IMG/VR virus record: IMGVR_UViG_3300036715_000213
Location: 1 to 64,000 of that record
DNA: 64,000 nucleotides
Source: a virus
Strand: one strand, 5' to 3'
The translations under genes and the position numbers were made by a program. Positions 2,355-7,920 of the stretch are shown here, piece by piece (position 1 is the stretch's first letter; every line of letters starts with the position of its first letter). Below the pieces are notes generated by a model. That model saw only the letters and a list, made by a program, of their open reading frames with translations, was not told the origin of the DNA and searched no databases.

Positions 2355-2640
2355 TATCGTCTACCACAATGTACATAAGGACTTGACCATCTTCCATGTC
2401 TGCGCGGCAGCGTTCTTTACCTTCATCAATTGTGCGTGTCTGAAACAAGAACTTGTTCTTCTCCAGATTATAGAACAAATAAGCACCGTCAGTTACAACA
2501 ATTTCAATGTTAATACATTTGCTTTTCTGCTCACGTTGCTTTGTGTTGTATCCAGAGATAACGCCGCGCCAGTAAAAGAAGCCACAGATCGCCATCCAGA
2601 ACAAAAATGCTCCGAGATTGTCTAATTCAAGCCAGTTCAT
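2338..2640 (-). CDS. hypothetical membrane protein inserted between gp44 and gp62
   Basis: Probable start MNWLELD overlaps the gp44 stop (ATGA); N-terminal hydrophobic helix. Confidence 0.6.
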   Translation of the reverse strand: MNWLELDNLGAFLFWMAICGFFYWRGVISGYNTKQREQKSKCINIEIVVTDGAYLFYNLEKNKFLFQTRTIDEGKERCRADMEDGQVLMYIVVDDNGEPI

Positions 2641-3581
2641 ACCCACTCCGCTTCTGCAGCAAATACTGCAAGGCAAGCTGTAATCAAGAGCTCAGTATCA
2701 GCAACTTGACTGCATTTATATAGATAGTCACCCAGAGTAACAACAATAGAGGGGAGACATCTTGGGGAAAGTAGTGGTGTAGTTTTTTCATATAAGCCTT
2801 TAAAAATATGTAAAGGTTCGATGTCTGAATTTGTTCCAACCCACTTACGCATGTCAGTAAAGTTTTTTGCCTTCAGAGCAACGACCAATTCGTTTAATTG
2901 AGCGTCAACCTGATTCACTAAAATACCAGAATCAATCTTGCCGCTTGAACTGTAACTTTGCAGCGCATTCAATGTGCTACGGAAGTCAGGATAGAACTTT
3001 TTAACCAACTCAGCGATGACTGGTTTGTCGTACTCAACACCTTCACTATCCAAGATGGTGAGAATACGTTTGAAGAAATGCGCTTGTAGTTTCGGCGCTT
3101 CTTCTTTGCTTACCTTAAAATCAATAACAAAACAACGGCTATGGATTGCGTCCATTACCTTGTTCTTAAAATTACAAGTAAAGATAAATCGTGTATTAGG
3201 AAATTGTTCAATAACGCCACGCAACGATTGTTGCTGGGCTGCTGATGCTCCGTCAAACTCATCAAGTAAGACAATCTTAATTCCATCGCCAAACGAAACA
3301 GATGATGCGAACTGAATTACATTCATCCGAACTGCGTCAATACCTTCAAGCGAAGCATTAATGTACATCAAGTCGGCGCCCAACTCATTAGCGATGACTC
3401 GTGCTAAAGTCGTCTTTCCTGTGCCTGCAGATCCAGTGAATAGGAAATGCGGGATGTTTCCGTTATCAATTAGATCCTGGATTGTTTTCTTTGTACCGTC
3501 TGGAAGAATTGCATCAGCCAGTTTGACTGGGCGATACTTCTCAGCCCACACGAGATTGTTCAATTTGTCGTTTTCAATCAT
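2637..3581 (-). CDS. gp44: clamp loader large subunit (RFC-like AAA+)
   Basis: WAEKYRP, Walker A GSAGTGKTT, LLDEFD, SRC. Confidence 0.97.
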   Translation of the reverse strand: MIENDKLNNLVWAEKYRPVKLADAILPDGTKKTIQDLIDNGNIPHFLFTGSAGTGKTTLARVIANELGADLMYINASLEGIDAVRMNVIQFASSVSFGDGIKIVLLDEFDGASAAQQQSLRGVIEQFPNTRFIFTCNFKNKVMDAIHSRCFVIDFKVSKEEAPKLQAHFFKRILTILDSEGVEYDKPVIAELVKKFYPDFRSTLNALQSYSSSGKIDSGILVNQVDAQLNELVVALKAKNFTDMRKWVGTNSDIEPLHIFKGLYEKTTPLLSPRCLPSIVVTLGDYLYKCSQVADTELLITACLAVFAAEAEWV

Positions 3582-3639
3582 GGATTGCTTTCATAATGTA
3601 GATGTCTTATTGTAATAGGAATTACAACGAAACAAAATA

Positions 3640-3900
3640 AAGTAAGAGGTTGATTTGGTTATATAGTCCAACCTCTAAAACACTACACTCTCGGTTTAGG
3701 CAACCAGAGAGAATCTTTCGTCGTTTGCATTTACTGCGATTTAGGTTTTACGTCCACTTTGACGATCTCTATAATTGTTTCCCTGCGCTGTCGAAACTAT
3801 GGCTGGCCCATCAAAAACATTTGAGTTGCTTTTGGTGGACCAGGGCGGTACTGCCCCGCCTTCCAACACATATACGCAATTACAGTTGCTAATTAAATAG
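3640..3900 (-). ncRNA. ssrA: circularly permuted (two-piece) tmRNA; tag ANDERFSLVA* at 3728-3696
   Basis: The acceptor piece ends GGCGG-GGCAGTA-CCGCC-CTGGTCC-A-CCA (CCA at 3833). A 23-nt spacer follows, then the coding piece starts GGGCCAG..TTTCGAC at 3809. GGGCCAG/CTGGTCC pair with a G3.U Ala determinant. Helix 2 pairs CAGCGCA/TGTGTTG and CAATTATAG/CTGTAATTG. Resume context is GTAAAT-GCA AAC GAC GAA. Outer ends are approximate. Confidence 0.92.
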
Positions 3901-4345
3901 CGGATTCTTTATTTAGTTTCTTTGAATGGAAATTCAATCCTGGATTGACTAACTTCTTTCCTTGACCTAATTTCCACCCATCGGGCTGTTCGTTTTCCAT
4001 AAAACAACCGCGCTTAGTCATATTGTCTGGATTATAGTACCAACGAGTTCCTTTAGTTCCTGCAGGATTTCTATTACCACCATTATCTAATTTCATTCCT
4101 TTGCGACTTTTTCTCGGTACTGTATGAGCTTTTTTACCAGCTTCATGTAACATTTGCTTGATGATTTCTTCACGGTTAATCATCTTAGCTAATCCCATCC
4201 ACGCTAACCTATCTTGCCAACGTCCATGCTGTTCAAACAAAACGCGATGTGCTTCTGCATGTTCTTCAATTGAAAGCTCTATCAAATTTTCTAGATTATC
4301 AGTTCCGCCGGCGTGTTTTGGTATGATGTGGTGTTTATGTTTCAT
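3893..4345 (-). CDS. free-standing HNH homing endonuclease
   Basis: HHIIPKHAGGTD...NLIELSIEEHAEAH HNH core; C-terminal GTRWYYN...PDGWKLG DNA-binding module. Confidence 0.88.
   Translation of the reverse strand: MKHKHHIIPKHAGGTDNLENLIELSIEEHAEAHRVLFEQHGRWQDRLAWMGLAKMINREEIIKQMLHEAGKKAHTVPRKSRKGMKLDNGGNRNPAGTKGTRWYYNPDNMTKRGCFMENEQPDGWKLGQGKKLVNPGLNFHSKKLNKESAI
3910..3917 (-). promoter_or_regulatory. late promoter-like ACTAAATA upstream of the tmRNA acceptor piece
   Basis: Matches the window's late consensus; lies in the last codons of the HNH gene. Confidence 0.5.
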
Positions 4346-4346
4346 T

Positions 4347-4381
4347 GTATCGATCCTATGTTTTATTTATAGGATCGATAC
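4347..4381 (-). promoter_or_regulatory. RBS-sequestering hairpin with embedded late promoter TATAAATA (4364-4371)
   Basis: Perfect 13-bp inverted repeat GTATCGATCCTAT/ATAGGATCGATAC; the 3' arm holds the AGGA SD of the HNH gene. Confidence 0.85.
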
Positions 4382-4686: not shown

Positions 4687-4762
4687 TGGTGCGGCGTCTG
4701 GGAGTCGAACCCAATATCGGTGAATTATGAGTTCACTGCTTTTACCAATAAGCTACCGCCGC
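4687..4762 (-). tRNA. tRNA with CAT anticodon (elongator Met or Ile2)
   Basis: GCGGCGG-TA-GCTT..AAGC-A-GTGAA-CTCATAA-TTCAC..TTGGG-TTCGACT-CCCAG-ACGCCGC-A-CCA, 76 nt with encoded CCA; lacks initiator features. Confidence 0.93.
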
Positions 4763-5067: not shown

Positions 5068-5724
5068 TTAAAGTTCAGAGGTAGATTCTAGTGCAACGTA
5101 AACAGTCATCTTGTCATCAACGCTAGTAAAGCGGCTAATCTTCTTAGATGAGATCGACACCTTATAGTCCTGTGACATCAACTTCAAGTTTTCAATCTTC
5201 AAGTTAGCTGTAAACTCTTTGTCGGTTGTACTGAGCTCCAAGTTATACGAGTTTGCTGTTGCGTTCTTCAAATCACCGATAACGATCGACAAGGTGCCGT
5301 CCTTACCAACAACCGAGACGTCAACTGCGCGCAATACGCTTGCCATCTTCTGGATAGTCGACAATTGTTGAGCTGACAGATCAAACTCAATATCGCTTGC
5401 CGGAAATACAACCTTCTTCTGTGGTACAGTCAATACAGATTCATCAGCTGCATAGAACTTAACACTAGATCCACCTTCCTTAAAGACAACGTATTTGTCC
5501 TTAAATTCCAGTTCAGGTTCGTTAAACGCACTAATGATTCCCAGGAACTCATTAGTGTCGTAGATACCAAACTGCTTTGGAAATGTCTCTGCTACAGTTG
5601 CTGAAGCAATAACGTTCTTCTGTACGTTGATTGTATTTAGTACGTTACCTTCTTTGATCAACAAATTTTGGTTGATGCTGGCGAAGTTACGCAATACCGC
5701 CATTGTGTCTTTGGAAATTCTCAT
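5068..5724 (-). CDS. gp45: DNA polymerase sliding clamp
   Basis: LRNFASINQNLLIKEG, FGIYD.NEFL, ENLKL....Y.V.IS, YVALE. Confidence 0.96.
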   Translation of the reverse strand: MRISKDTMAVLRNFASINQNLLIKEGNVLNTINVQKNVIASATVAETFPKQFGIYDTNEFLGIISAFNEPELEFKDKYVVFKEGGSSVKFYAADESVLTVPQKKVVFPASDIEFDLSAQQLSTIQKMASVLRAVDVSVVGKDGTLSIVIGDLKNATANSYNLELSTTDKEFTANLKIENLKLMSQDYKVSISSKKISRFTSVDDKMTVYVALESTSEL

Positions 5725-6952: not shown

Positions 6953-7920
6953 GCTTCGATTTCGTAGTTTTCGAGAATGTAGTTGAATGCTTCATTCTTT
7001 TTAGTGTTACCAGTACCCCAGAATGTAGAGTTCAGGATACGGTTTGGGTTACGTCCAACGTGATGATCATGATACTCAGTGACTGCGTTCAACAGTCCCC
7101 AAGCAGTTTGTCCTGCCATATCGGAACCCATTGCACCACCTAGGTACAGATTGTGAACATCATTTGCCATTGCTACTTCTGCCTTTGTTGGGTCAGCTGC
7201 ATCATTTGCAAACAGTGTTAACAGGTCCGCGTATGCGTCCTTAACTGTAACCTTCTTAGACTTCATCTCCAACAGTTGACGTTGGAACTTGTCCCAAGAC
7301 GATTCAAACAAACCAAGTTCGTTCTTAACATTGTTAGGATTGAACGTAGAACGGTGATTAGTTGCTACGCGAGATTTGCGTTGGTCACCAACTGCGACGC
7401 TTAATGTGTTATTACACACGACGCGAACGCTGGTAAACTGTGCTGCGGTTGCCATTGAACCGTCACACGATGTAGACAAGAGCAAATAGCCGCCTACAAT
7501 GTCATTACCGCCAACTGCCACCTTTTGATTGGTGTCAGCCAGAGCCCAGAACTTCTTACCGCCGAACAATGTTCCGGCAGTAGACAGTTCCATTCCTGCA
7601 TCGCTAACGAGCGAGCGGAAGAATTCCAAAACTTCCTTCGGCTGGACAGCCTTGTACTTGTCGGAAACTACAGACAGGGCTTCACGGGTGTCACTACGAT
7701 ACAAGACGCGCTTGCCGTCAAAGATTTGAGTTGTTGAATCTTGATCGGTGAAGTTCAACTCTGAGGAATTGATTTCCCAATCCATACCAGCTTCGCGCTG
7801 CCATACTTCAATAGGAGAACCGCGGGTCAATTCTTGGCCAAGTCCGTGCCAAATCTCGGAACGGTTACCGACAAATGCCATTTCGTCTTTGCCGGCGGTG
7901 CGTGTAATTTCGTGTGCCAT
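6949..7920 (-). CDS. DUF932 (TIGR03299 phage/plasmid-like) protein
   Basis: WHGLG, AGMDW, VVSDKY.AVQP, TAG.L.GG, S.DGS, TSVRVVCNNTL, TAWGLLNAVTEY.DH. Confidence 0.9.
   Translation of the reverse strand: MAHEITRTAGKDEMAFVGNRSEIWHGLGQELTRGSPIEVWQREAGMDWEINSSELNFTDQDSTTQIFDGKRVLYRSDTREALSVVSDKYKAVQPKEVLEFFRSLVSDAGMELSTAGTLFGGKKFWALADTNQKVAVGGNDIVGGYLLLSTSCDGSMATAAQFTSVRVVCNNTLSVAVGDQRKSRVATNHRSTFNPNNVKNELGLFESSWDKFQRQLLEMKSKKVTVKDAYADLLTLFANDAADPTKAEVAMANDVHNLYLGGAMGSDMAGQTAWGLLNAVTEYHDHHVGRNPNRILNSTFWGTGNTKKNEAFNYILENYEIEA

What the first reader, a model, noticed from the sequence alone, without database searches (positions are those of the whole stretch)
3640..3917. Phage-encoded circularly permuted (two-piece) tmRNA with its own degradation tag
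Seen: on the - strand the tmRNA 3' half (T-arm with GGCAGTA loop, CTGGTCC-A-CCA) comes before the 5' half (GGGCCAG..TTCGAC), separated by 23 nt. The acceptor stem with G3.U and two helix-2 segments pair across the halves. The tag frame ANDERFSLVA* has its stop in a hairpin loop, and a late-promoter-like ACTAAATA sits just upstream. Established: two-piece tmRNAs occur in alphaproteobacteria, some cyanobacteria and a betaproteobacterial lineage. The GGCAGUA-type T-loop is the alphaproteobacterial form, while ANDERF-type tags are typical of Betaproteobacteria. Inference: this is a very compact (~260 nt), chimeric-looking permuted tmRNA that may let the phage restore or retune trans-translation late in infection, for example against host RNase toxins or defence-induced stalling. 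The tag ends in LVA rather than LAA.
Basis: partly seen in the sequence, partly recalled or inferred. Interest (0 to 1): 0.9.

Follow-up and report, generated by a model that had tools for sequence, protein, structure and literature searches.

The report
Two-piece tmRNA gene in T4-like phage
An uncultured T4-like phage carries a real, intact-looking gene for the ribosome-rescue RNA (tmRNA) written in swapped, two-piece order, but such phage genes are already published and very common in viral metagenomes, so this is an ordinary new member with a few local quirks.

Summary
Window 3903-3630 (- strand) holds a circularly permuted tmRNA gene. It scores 96.7 bits on Rfam tmRNA_permuted (cut-off 47) and 92.2 on beta_tmRNA (cut-off 84). 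ARAGORN calls the same gene and the tag ANDERFSLVA only at a lowered threshold.

The gene lies between the clamp (gp45) and clamp-loader (gp44) genes of an IMG/VR T4-like myophage.

It is not a new kind. Two-piece tmRNAs of marine T4-like phages are published (Melnitz; PMC9004378). One narrow pattern found at least 120 IMG/VR contigs with them. This scan has noted phage permuted tmRNAs many times on other DNA.

The "alpha loop plus beta tag" mix is normal for this phage clade. The closest phages (gp44 79% identical) carry a tmRNA at the same position, also ending in LVA, but with a different tRNA-like domain. The window alone has an HNH homing-endonuclease gene abutting the tmRNA gene, which suggests allele mosaicism.

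The late-promoter idea gains moderate support. Neither this record nor the complete related genomes searched encode SmpB. No RNA data exist, so function is inferred.

The parts
3910..3917 (-). ACTAAATA, a late-promoter-like octamer. The predicted transcript start is near 3903.
   Evidence: The same octamer lies 42 nt upstream of the tail sheath gene and 18 nt upstream of the head scaffold gene. L312 and L313 have CATAAATA 14 nt before their acceptor piece. The overall count of 5 is not above chance, 3.8 expected.
3833..3903 (-). Acceptor piece (3' tRNA-like half). It holds the P2b strand 3885-3877, P2a strand 3870-3864, T-arm 3860-3844, acceptor 3' strand 3843-3837, discriminator A 3836 and CCA 3835-3833. 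The 5' end is predicted, not shown.
   Evidence: Rfam RF04321 alignment starts at 3893. Sequence read. ARAGORN -ps result. Family covariation.
3810..3832 (-). Intervening segment of 23 nt, presumably excised. It forms a 6-8 bp stem-loop that extends the acceptor stem in the precursor.
   Evidence: Precursor fold. It is the third shortest of 121 phage spacers, which range 5-373 nt with median 89.
3630..3809 (-). Coding piece. It holds the acceptor 5' strand 3809-3803, the D-loop analogue 3802-3791, the P2a partner 3790-3784, the P2b partner 3777-3769, a 4-bp hairpin at the PK1 position 3764-3751, the tag frame, and the 3' hairpin with a U-run.
3696..3728 (-). Tag reading frame: GCA resume codon through TAA, encoding ANDERFSLVA*.
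   Evidence: The stop codon lies in the loop of hairpin 3711-3688. In the family, identical peptides are encoded by up to 8 different nucleotide sequences.
3630..3676 (-). 3'-terminal hairpin: 8-bp stem 3676-3669 with 3652-3645 and a 16-nt loop containing UAACCAAAU, followed by a U-rich tail. It is a likely terminator and a homologue of the alpha/phage-type AACAGAA-loop hairpin.
   Evidence: The consensus terminator scan did not list it, because it counts loops of 3-8 nt only.
3893..4345 (-). Free-standing HNH homing endonuclease gene. Its stop codon abuts the start of the tmRNA gene. It is absent from the syntenic relatives.
   Evidence: Pfam HNH. phrog_655 at 5.8e-12. L312 and L313 lack it. 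Its relatives sit in or beside phage tmRNA genes.
4347..4381 (-). Perfect 13-bp hairpin that buries the AGGA ribosome-binding site of the HNH gene. TATAAATA (4371-4364) spans the 5' arm and loop, so late transcripts from here would also read into the tmRNA gene.
4687..4762 (-). tRNA-Met (CAT), part of the conserved order gp45, small ORF, tRNA, ORF, tmRNA, gp44.
   Evidence: A tRNA lies at the same position in L312.
2637..3581 (-). gp44 clamp-loader gene, the downstream neighbour that anchors synteny.
   Evidence: Pfam Gp44_lid and AAA. L312 and L313 are 79% identical at the protein level.
5068..5724 (-). gp45 sliding clamp gene, the upstream anchor.
   Evidence: Pfam gp45-slide_C.

Best explanation
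This is a genuine and probably working two-piece (circularly permuted) ssrA/tmRNA gene of an uncultured lytic T4-like myophage.

Shown:
- The gene has every sequence feature of a permuted tmRNA.
- It belongs to a large phage-borne family whose stems covary and whose tag peptide is under selection.
- It is conserved at the same genomic position in the nearest phages.

Inferred mechanism:
- The gene is transcribed on the - strand, most likely late. Candidate promoters are ACTAAATA at 3917-3910 and the TATAAATA promoter of the adjacent HNH gene. Transcription would end at the 3' hairpin and U-run near 3630.
- Host RNase P cuts 5' of G3809, and host 3' trimming exposes the encoded CCA at 3833. This discards the 23-nt stem-loop spacer.
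- The acceptor piece (about 71 nt) and the coding piece (about 175 nt) stay together through the 7-bp acceptor stem and helices P2a and P2b.
- Host AlaRS charges the RNA through the G3.U pair.
- Host SmpB and EF-Tu deliver it to stalled ribosomes. Translation resumes on GCA and appends ANDERFSLVA. An LVA end is degraded in E. coli nearly as fast as LAA.
- The likely benefit to the phage is to keep ribosomes free and clear truncated products when the host can no longer renew its own tmRNA and mRNA fragments abound.
For: - Covariance models: RF04321 96.7 bits against a cut-off of 47, and RF01850 92.2 against 84. ARAGORN -ps calls a permuted tmRNA with the same tag.
- Anatomy read directly from the sequence.
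- Family size: one pattern for the 5' half hit at least 120 IMG/VR contigs. Of 127 matches, 120 are permuted and 98 are unique.
- Covariation: the T stem is 98% paired (36-59% when slid) and P2a is 83% paired (27-42% when slid), both with compensatory changes.
- Tag selection: identical tag peptides are encoded by up to 8 synonymous nucleotide versions.
- Synteny: L312 (164.8 kb, 100% complete) and L313 carry a permuted tmRNA directly upstream of gp44, at 82.7 and 84 bits. Their tag ANIAQNDEVFALVA also ends in LVA.
- Promoter: ACTAAATA also precedes the tail sheath and scaffold genes.
- No integrase in the record or in L312's complete genome, so this is not an attachment-site remnant.
- LVA-tagged LacI has a half-life of about 13 min, against about 8 min for LAA, in E. 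coli (PMC3511798).
- Phage two-piece tmRNA is published in related marine myophages (PMC9004378).
Against: - There is no expression, processing, charging or tagging datum.
- No SmpB gene in this 43%-complete record or in two complete related genomes, so function depends on compatibility with an unknown host's SmpB and AlaRS.
- The gene lacks the sigma-70-type promoter and the outermost GGUUGU/ACAAC helix seen in several other family members inspected.
- The octamer ACTAAATA is not enriched overall.
- The T-loop GGCAGUA departs from the canonical T-loop. This form works in Alphaproteobacteria, by established knowledge, but has not been tested here.
- A pseudoknot at the PK1 position could not be drawn by hand; only a 4-bp hairpin is evident.
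Confidence: 0.82

Rival explanations
1. It acts as a decoy rather than a rescuer. The RNA would soak up host SmpB or AlaRS and so block host trans-translation. This has been proposed for the tag-less tRNA-like-domain RNA of mycobacteriophage DS6A.
For: No phage SmpB. A tRNA-like-domain-only tmRNA is reported to inhibit tmRNA, perhaps by titrating SmpB (PMC4131195; PMC11915505).
Against: The tag frame is intact, with a canonical resume context. It is conserved at the peptide level across the family through synonymous changes. The LVA end is kept in the syntenic relatives. A decoy needs none of this.
Confidence: 0.05
2. It is a passenger of selfish DNA. The gene would persist mainly as the landing site or cargo of HNH homing endonucleases, and would be neutral or decaying in this phage.
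For: An HNH gene abuts it. Relatives of that HNH sit inside or beside permuted tmRNA genes in 17 of 80 loci, of 9 distinct types. The gene has lost the family's usual promoter and outer helix.
Against: The relatives without the HNH keep a tmRNA at the same place. All stems, G3.U, CCA and the tag frame are intact. The family shows compensatory changes and selection on the tag.
Confidence: 0.08
3. It is a host-derived fragment or an attachment-site remnant picked up by imprecise excision, as seen in temperate phages that integrate into ssrA.
For: ssrA is a common integration site (PMC4383910 abstract; discussed in PMC9004378).
Against: The gene is complete, not a 3' fragment. The phage is T4-like and has no integrase. 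Its T-arm and acceptor combination matched no tmRNA among the 38 pattern hits in 185,579 species genomes, whereas all 8 viral hits are tmRNAs.
Confidence: 0.02

Closest known systems
Two-piece tmRNA (ssrA) of OM43 myophage Melnitz and related pelagimyophages (Buchholz et al. 2022, PMC9004378). That study also counted 53 ARAGORN-called two-piece tmRNAs among 18,146 phage genomes.
   Same: A permuted ssrA carried by a lytic T4-like myophage, with a complete tag frame. Alpha-type features appear regardless of host class.
   Different: No detectable nucleotide similarity to any record in the phage isolate collection. No glnA riboswitch hit. A late-type promoter motif instead of the early promoter reported for Melnitz. 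The tag ends in LVA. The site differs: between gp45 and gp44, with an HNH gene abutting. The phage itself is distant, with gp44 47% identical to that of HTVC008M.
Uncultured phage permuted tmRNAs with a GGGCCNG 5' strand (IMG/VR; for example L051, L094, L382)
   Same: Acceptor stem type. The T-arm is identical to that of L051 and L149. Short ANDxxF-type tag. Spacer closed by a stem. 3' hairpin with a UAAC...AA loop.
   Different: Overall identity is only about 70%. The window lacks the sigma-70-type promoter and the GGUUGU 5' helix. Its spacer is among the shortest. It is the only LVA end among 50 unique tags.
Syntenic tmRNA of the nearest phages, L312 and L313 (IMG/VR)
   Same: Same position: gp45, small ORF, tRNA, ORF, tmRNA, gp44. 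The PK1-to-resume segment is the best match of 102 comparators, at 0.76-0.78. The tag ends in LVA. An NATAAATA-type motif lies upstream.
   Different: Canonical T-loop GGTTCGATTCC and a GGGGCTG acceptor strand. The T-arm and acceptor strand rank last of 121 comparators, and the first 19 nt of the coding piece rank 112th. Spacers are 78-89 nt. The tag is longer. There is no HNH gene.
Betaproteobacterial two-piece tmRNA (Rfam RF01850; lineage described by Sharkady and Williams 2004, cited in PMC9004378)
   Same: ANDE.F tag. GUUUCGACAG D-loop analogue. CGUC...GACG hairpin and UAAAUGC resume context. Spacer length. 3' hairpin.
   Different: The score is only 92 bits, against 160-331 for sampled bacterial members. 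The T-loop is not canonical. The acceptor is GGGCCAG, not GGGGGUG. The outer P2 helices are absent.
Alphaproteobacterial two-piece tmRNA (Rfam RF01849; Caulobacter type, Keiler et al. 2000, cited in PMC9004378)
   Same: T-loop GGC[A/G]GUA. Encoded CCA. Two pieces joined by the acceptor stem and P2.
   Different: The D-loop analogue is AGUUUCGAC, not AGGAUCGAC. The tag is short. The coding piece is only 30-41% identical to sampled alpha genes.

Membership tests
Permuted (two-piece) tmRNA, Rfam RF04321 | Covariance-model score above the curated gathering score | tested here: met
   96.7 bits against 47, E 1.6e-17, full model 1-213. Sampled alpha bacteria score 89-166 bits.
Permuted (two-piece) tmRNA, Rfam RF04321 | Gene order: the 3' tRNA-like half ending in CCA lies upstream of the 5' half | tested here: met
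   CCA ends at 3833 and G1 is at 3809 on the - strand. ARAGORN -ps labels the gene 'Permuted'.
Permuted (two-piece) tmRNA, Rfam RF04321 | 7-bp acceptor stem with G3.U (alanine identity), discriminator A, and a T-arm | tested here: met
   GGGCCAG pairs with CTGGTCC, giving G3.U, followed by A and CCA. The T stem has 5 bp and the loop 7 nt. In 98 relatives the T stem is 98% paired, with several pair types.
Permuted (two-piece) tmRNA, Rfam RF04321 | Helix 2 joining the two pieces | tested here: met
   P2a has 7 bp and P2b 9 bp. In the family, P2a is 83% paired against 27-42% when slid. The outermost helix of the model is not formed.
Permuted (two-piece) tmRNA, Rfam RF04321 | Tag reading frame with an Ala resume codon and a hydrophobic C-terminal end | tested here: met
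   GCA...TAA encodes ANDERFSLVA*. It ends in LVA instead of the usual LAA.
Permuted (two-piece) tmRNA, Rfam RF04321 | Processing into two RNAs, alanylation, SmpB binding and tagging activity | not testable with these tools
   No sequencing run on record as RNA holds the stretch. See Tried and rejected.
Betaproteobacterial two-piece tmRNA, Rfam RF01850 | Score typical of members | tested here: inconclusive
   92.2 bits is just above the cut-off of 84. Complete sampled bacterial members score 160-331 bits.
Betaproteobacterial two-piece tmRNA, Rfam RF01850 | Canonical T-loop (GGUUCGAUUCC) and a GGGGGUG-type acceptor strand | tested here: not met
   The window has GGCAGUA and GGCCAG-type strands, GGGCCAG in full. 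All 12 sampled beta genes have the canonical loop.
Betaproteobacterial two-piece tmRNA, Rfam RF01850 | Outer P2 helices starting at GGUUGU | tested here: not met
   These pairs are gapped or marked non-canonical in the model alignment.
Alphaproteobacterial two-piece tmRNA, Rfam RF01849 | T-loop GGC[A/G]GUA | tested here: met
   The model consensus is GGCgGUA. The 31 sampled alpha genes agree.
Alphaproteobacterial two-piece tmRNA, Rfam RF01849 | D-loop analogue A(A/C)AGGAUCGAC and an acceptor strand of the GGGGGCG type (GGGGGUG or GGGGAUG in some) | tested here: not met
   The window has CCAUAGUUUCGAC and GGGCCAG. Beta was the best-scoring model of the clan.
HNH homing endonuclease (Pfam PF01844; phrog_655), neighbouring gene | HNH motif (HH...N...H) and a match to the family profile | tested here: met
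   Motif HHIIPKHAGGTDNLENL...HAEAH. PF01844 scores 21.8 bits against 21.4. phrog_655 at 5.8e-12.

The most novel reading that the evidence does not exclude
The window's tmRNA may be a natural domain swap made by a homing endonuclease. In this reading, an HNH gene entered the tmRNA locus of an L312-like ancestor. It brought, or co-converted, a different tRNA-like domain (GGCAGUA loop, GGGCCAG acceptor) that escapes cleavage. The ancestral messenger part (PK1 hairpin, resume context, LVA tag end) was kept. If so, homing endonucleases would be shuffling tmRNA modules among phages. The two halves of a two-piece tmRNA would then be freely exchangeable in nature.
Probability: 0.3. Interest if true: 0.55.

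Novelty: new member of a known kind. Interest (0 to 1): 0.3.

Why it matters
The class is already known, so the finding adds one divergent member. Four points are useful.

- Annotation. ARAGORN at default settings misses this gene, while Rfam's new permuted model finds it. Surveys based on ARAGORN therefore undercount phage tmRNAs.
- Origin markers. In phages, T-loop type and tag type do not travel together. This weakens the use of "alpha-like ssrA" as a marker of a phage's past host.
- The tag. This lineage keeps an LVA tag end, seen in none of 49 other unique phage tags. That could reflect the host's proteases.
- The locus. A homing endonuclease sits at a stable-RNA gene, and relatives with and without it allow the consequences for the RNA to be read directly.

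Tried and rejected
- Sequencing runs: no RNA holder listed. The four holders appear to be DNA runs, from sediment and microbial mat metagenomes. I did not lay reads, because contigs cannot show RNA ends.
- blastn of the locus against 50,697 phage isolate records: no match.
- Search for closer tmRNA relatives with window-specific patterns. It gave one contig (L166) that shares the 5' half but has an unrelated tag. The ANDERF pattern hit 84 viral contigs, which I did not analyse further.
- The genome-contig scan with the T-arm/acceptor pattern gave 38 loci, none of them a tmRNA by Rfam. This shows only that the exact combination is absent from species-representative genomes. It does not show that the loop type is phage-specific.
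- The sigma-70 promoter and terminator scan found nothing on the - strand.
- My first heuristic missed the L312 and L313 tmRNAs because their linker is one base longer. I corrected this after the Rfam search of the whole records.
- MAFFT misaligned the acceptor pieces of the window and L312, so I compared segments by landmarks instead.
- I looked for a remnant of an older acceptor piece upstream of the window's HNH gene, as seen in L382. None was evident.
- Host identification was not pursued. No close cultured relative exists.
- The idea that the HNH gene and the acceptor piece form one conserved mobile cassette is weakened. The window and L382 HNH proteins share only the N-terminal 93 residues. 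HNH genes sitting in the spacer occur with every T-loop type.
- One of the 31 alpha comparators (L290) comes from an unpublished genome. It enters only the group averages.

Full report
**What is there**

- The T-arm is GGCGG / GGCAGTA / CCGCC at 3860-3844.
- It is followed by the acceptor 3' strand CTGGTCC, discriminator A and CCA, ending at 3833.
- After a 23-nt spacer (3832-3810) comes the 5' strand GGGCCAG, starting at 3809. It pairs with the 3' strand and gives a G3.U pair.
- Two further helices join the halves: P2a (3870-3864 with 3790-3784, 7 bp) and P2b (3885-3877 with 3777-3769, 9 bp).
- The frame 3728-3696 reads ANDERFSLVA*. Its stop codon lies in the loop of hairpin 3711-3688.
- An 8-bp hairpin with a 16-nt loop (3676-3645) and a U-rich tail close the gene.

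Rfam scores the region at 96.7 bits on tmRNA_permuted (RF04321, cut-off 47) and 92.2 bits on beta_tmRNA (RF01850, cut-off 84). ARAGORN misses it at the default threshold. With -ps it calls a permuted tmRNA with the same domains and tag. A two-strand fold recovers the T-arm and the inter-piece acceptor stem.

**Context**

The window is part of a 75,996-bp IMG/VR virus record, estimated 43% complete.
- Neighbouring genes are the gp45 sliding clamp, the gp44 and gp62 clamp loader and RegA. Tail sheath, tail tube, scaffold and head-closure genes lie further along. This is a T4-like myophage.
- The best cultured match of gp44 is Pelagibacter phage HTVC008M, at 47%.
- The runs that hold the DNA come from sediment and microbial mat metagenomes.
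- There is no integrase and no SmpB gene.

**Already known as a kind**

- Buchholz et al. 2022 (PMC9004378) described a two-piece ssrA in the OM43 myophage Melnitz and in related pelagimyophage contigs. They counted 53 two-piece tmRNAs among 18,146 phage genomes, 50 of them aquatic.
- The 2025 tmRNA database lists 79 bacteriophage sequences (PMC11915505).
- Huge phages also carry tmRNA and SmpB (PMC7162821).
- This scan has many earlier notes on phage permuted tmRNAs on other DNA.

**How common, and is the structure conserved**

- A pattern for the T-arm and acceptor found 8 viral contigs, all of them Rfam-confirmed permuted tmRNAs.
- The same pattern in 185,579 species genomes gave 38 loci, none of them a tmRNA.
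Of 127 matches, 120 have the permuted layout and 98 are unique.
- In these 98, the T stem is 98% paired against 36-59% when slid. P2a is 83% paired against 27-42%. Both show GC/CG/AU/UA exchanges.
- The same tag peptide is encoded by up to eight synonymous versions.

This is a family under selection for both structure and tag.

**Is it chimeric between alpha and beta**

- The alpha model consensus loop is GGCgGUA, and 31 sampled alpha genomes have GGC[A/G]GUA.
- The 12 sampled beta two-piece genes have the canonical loop, a GUUUCGACAG D-loop analogue and ANDE.F tags, including ANDERFALAA.

But in the phage family the loops are GGCAGUG (51 sequences), GGCAGUA (25) and GGCGGUA (14). The tags are mostly ANDxxFALAA. 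The mixture is therefore the family norm. Closely similar phage genes even differ in loop type, for example L079 against L070 and L138.

Segment by segment, the window is closer to other phage tmRNAs (best 0.64-0.75) than to any sampled alpha (best 0.34-0.61) or beta gene (best 0.43-0.58). True beta genes score 160-331 bits on RF01850, so 92 bits is a marginal hit. I do not file the gene under the beta or the alpha family. It belongs to the general permuted family and to a phage clade.

**The nearest phages**

Two contigs have gp44 at 79% identity: L312 (164,769 bp, 100% complete) and L313.
- Both carry a permuted tmRNA directly upstream of gp44, at 82.7 and 84 bits.
- The gene order is the same: gp45, small ORF, tRNA, ORF (56% identical to the window's 95-residue ORF), tmRNA, gp44.
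- Their tag ANIAQNDEVFALVA also ends in LVA. None of 49 other unique phage tags does.
- Their tRNA-like domain differs: a canonical loop GGTTCGATTCC and a GGGGCTG acceptor strand.

Among 121 comparators, L312 ranks last for the T-arm and the acceptor strand and 112th for the first 19 nt of the coding piece. L313 and L312 rank first and second of 102 for the 45 nt before the tag. The window's T-arm is identical to that of unrelated contigs L051 and L149. This is a mosaic pattern. The segments are short, and the 3' tail does not follow a single-crossover model.

**The HNH gene**

Only the window has an HNH homing endonuclease gene (3893-4345) between the 95-residue ORF and the tmRNA. Its stop codon abuts the start of the Rfam hit.

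Of 80 loci with relatives of this protein, 17 (9 distinct types) hold a permuted tmRNA.
- In most of these the HNH gene lies inside the spacer, which is then 482-531 nt. Rfam confirms four of the six tested.
- In L382 the HNH gene lies upstream of a GGCAGUG-type acceptor piece, as in the window. Upstream of that HNH gene sits the 5' part of an older acceptor piece, cut off in a canonical T-loop.

This supports, but does not prove, the idea that homing events replace parts of phage tmRNA genes. Two points weigh against one fixed cassette. The two HNH proteins share only their first 93 residues. And HNH genes in the spacer occur with every loop type.

**Expression**

No sigma-70-type promoter precedes the gene, unlike L002, L003, L094, L142 and L152.
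- NATAAATA occurs 17 times. Six or seven of these lie within 60 nt upstream of gene starts (tail tube, head closure, prohead, UvsY, the HNH gene).
- NCTAAATA occurs 9 times. Four lie upstream of genes, including tail sheath and scaffold, where the exact octamer ACTAAATA is used.
- Control motifs give 0-2 of 8-14.
- L312 and L313 have CATAAATA 14 nt before their acceptor piece.
- A canonical TATAAATA inside a 13-bp hairpin that hides the HNH ribosome-binding site (4381-4347) would also send late transcripts into the tmRNA gene.

Late expression is therefore plausible, but it has not been shown.

**Mechanism and function**

The best reading is a working two-piece tmRNA that uses host RNase P, 3' trimming, AlaRS, SmpB, EF-Tu and proteases. 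No SmpB gene is found in the complete related genomes. An LVA end supports degradation in E. coli: LacI-LVA has a half-life of about 13 min against about 8 min for LAA (PMC3511798). A role against host RNase toxins or defence systems is untested speculation.

**Verdict**

The gene is real. It is a new and divergent member of a known kind. Interest is low to moderate, and rests mainly on the homing-endonuclease and mosaic angle and on the lineage-specific LVA tag.

Noticed in passing
window 4347-4381 (- strand): A perfect 13-bp hairpin buries the AGGA ribosome-binding site of the HNH gene. TATAAATA (4371-4364) spans the 5' arm and loop. This is the T4-style design that allows translation only from late transcripts. 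Related HNH genes in other contigs show similar hairpin-plus-ATAAATA leaders.
   Followed up: partly
L375, L376, L385-L390, L403/L405/L409, L416/L418/L419, around 2425-2975 in each: Relatives of the window's HNH protein are encoded inside the intervening segment of permuted phage tmRNA genes, giving spacers of 482-531 nt. Rfam confirms L376, L385 and L416.
   Followed up: partly
L382 about 2395-2460 and 3000-3274: Upstream of an HNH gene lies the promoter and 5' part of an older acceptor piece, cut off within a canonical T-loop. Downstream of the HNH gene lies a complete tmRNA with a GGCAGUG loop. This looks like a scar of allele replacement.
   Followed up: partly
L312 3143-3220 and L313 3132-3220: These two near-identical phages have unrelated tmRNA spacers (78 and 89 nt) between near-identical flanks. 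The L312 spacer contains a T-arm-like fragment. The spacer appears to be a hypervariable slot.
   Followed up: no
L004-L009 (for example L007 3875-4828): In this group of contigs the permuted tmRNA sits at the end of a tRNA gene array. The array includes a hit at the gathering score of the tRNA-Sec model.
   Followed up: no
Phage isolate records OQ427096.1, PQ569993.1, ON331942.1, ON758385.1, ON615601.1: Cultured Xanthomonas, Stenotrophomonas and Synechococcus phages have short blastn matches to parts of a common phage tmRNA, mostly the acceptor piece. The matches lie in stretches with no annotation or marked 'hypothetical protein'. These may be unannotated tmRNA genes.
   Followed up: no
window 3640-3930: ARAGORN 1.2.41 at default settings does not report this tmRNA. 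It appears only with the lowered threshold (-ps). Surveys based on ARAGORN will undercount such genes.
   Followed up: yes
G276 (record of L316) 7489-7734: A complete T4-like genome of 147,921 bp with terminal repeats has a strong permuted tmRNA hit (137.5 bits) far from its gp44 gene. The position of the tmRNA is therefore not fixed among T4-like phages.
   Followed up: no
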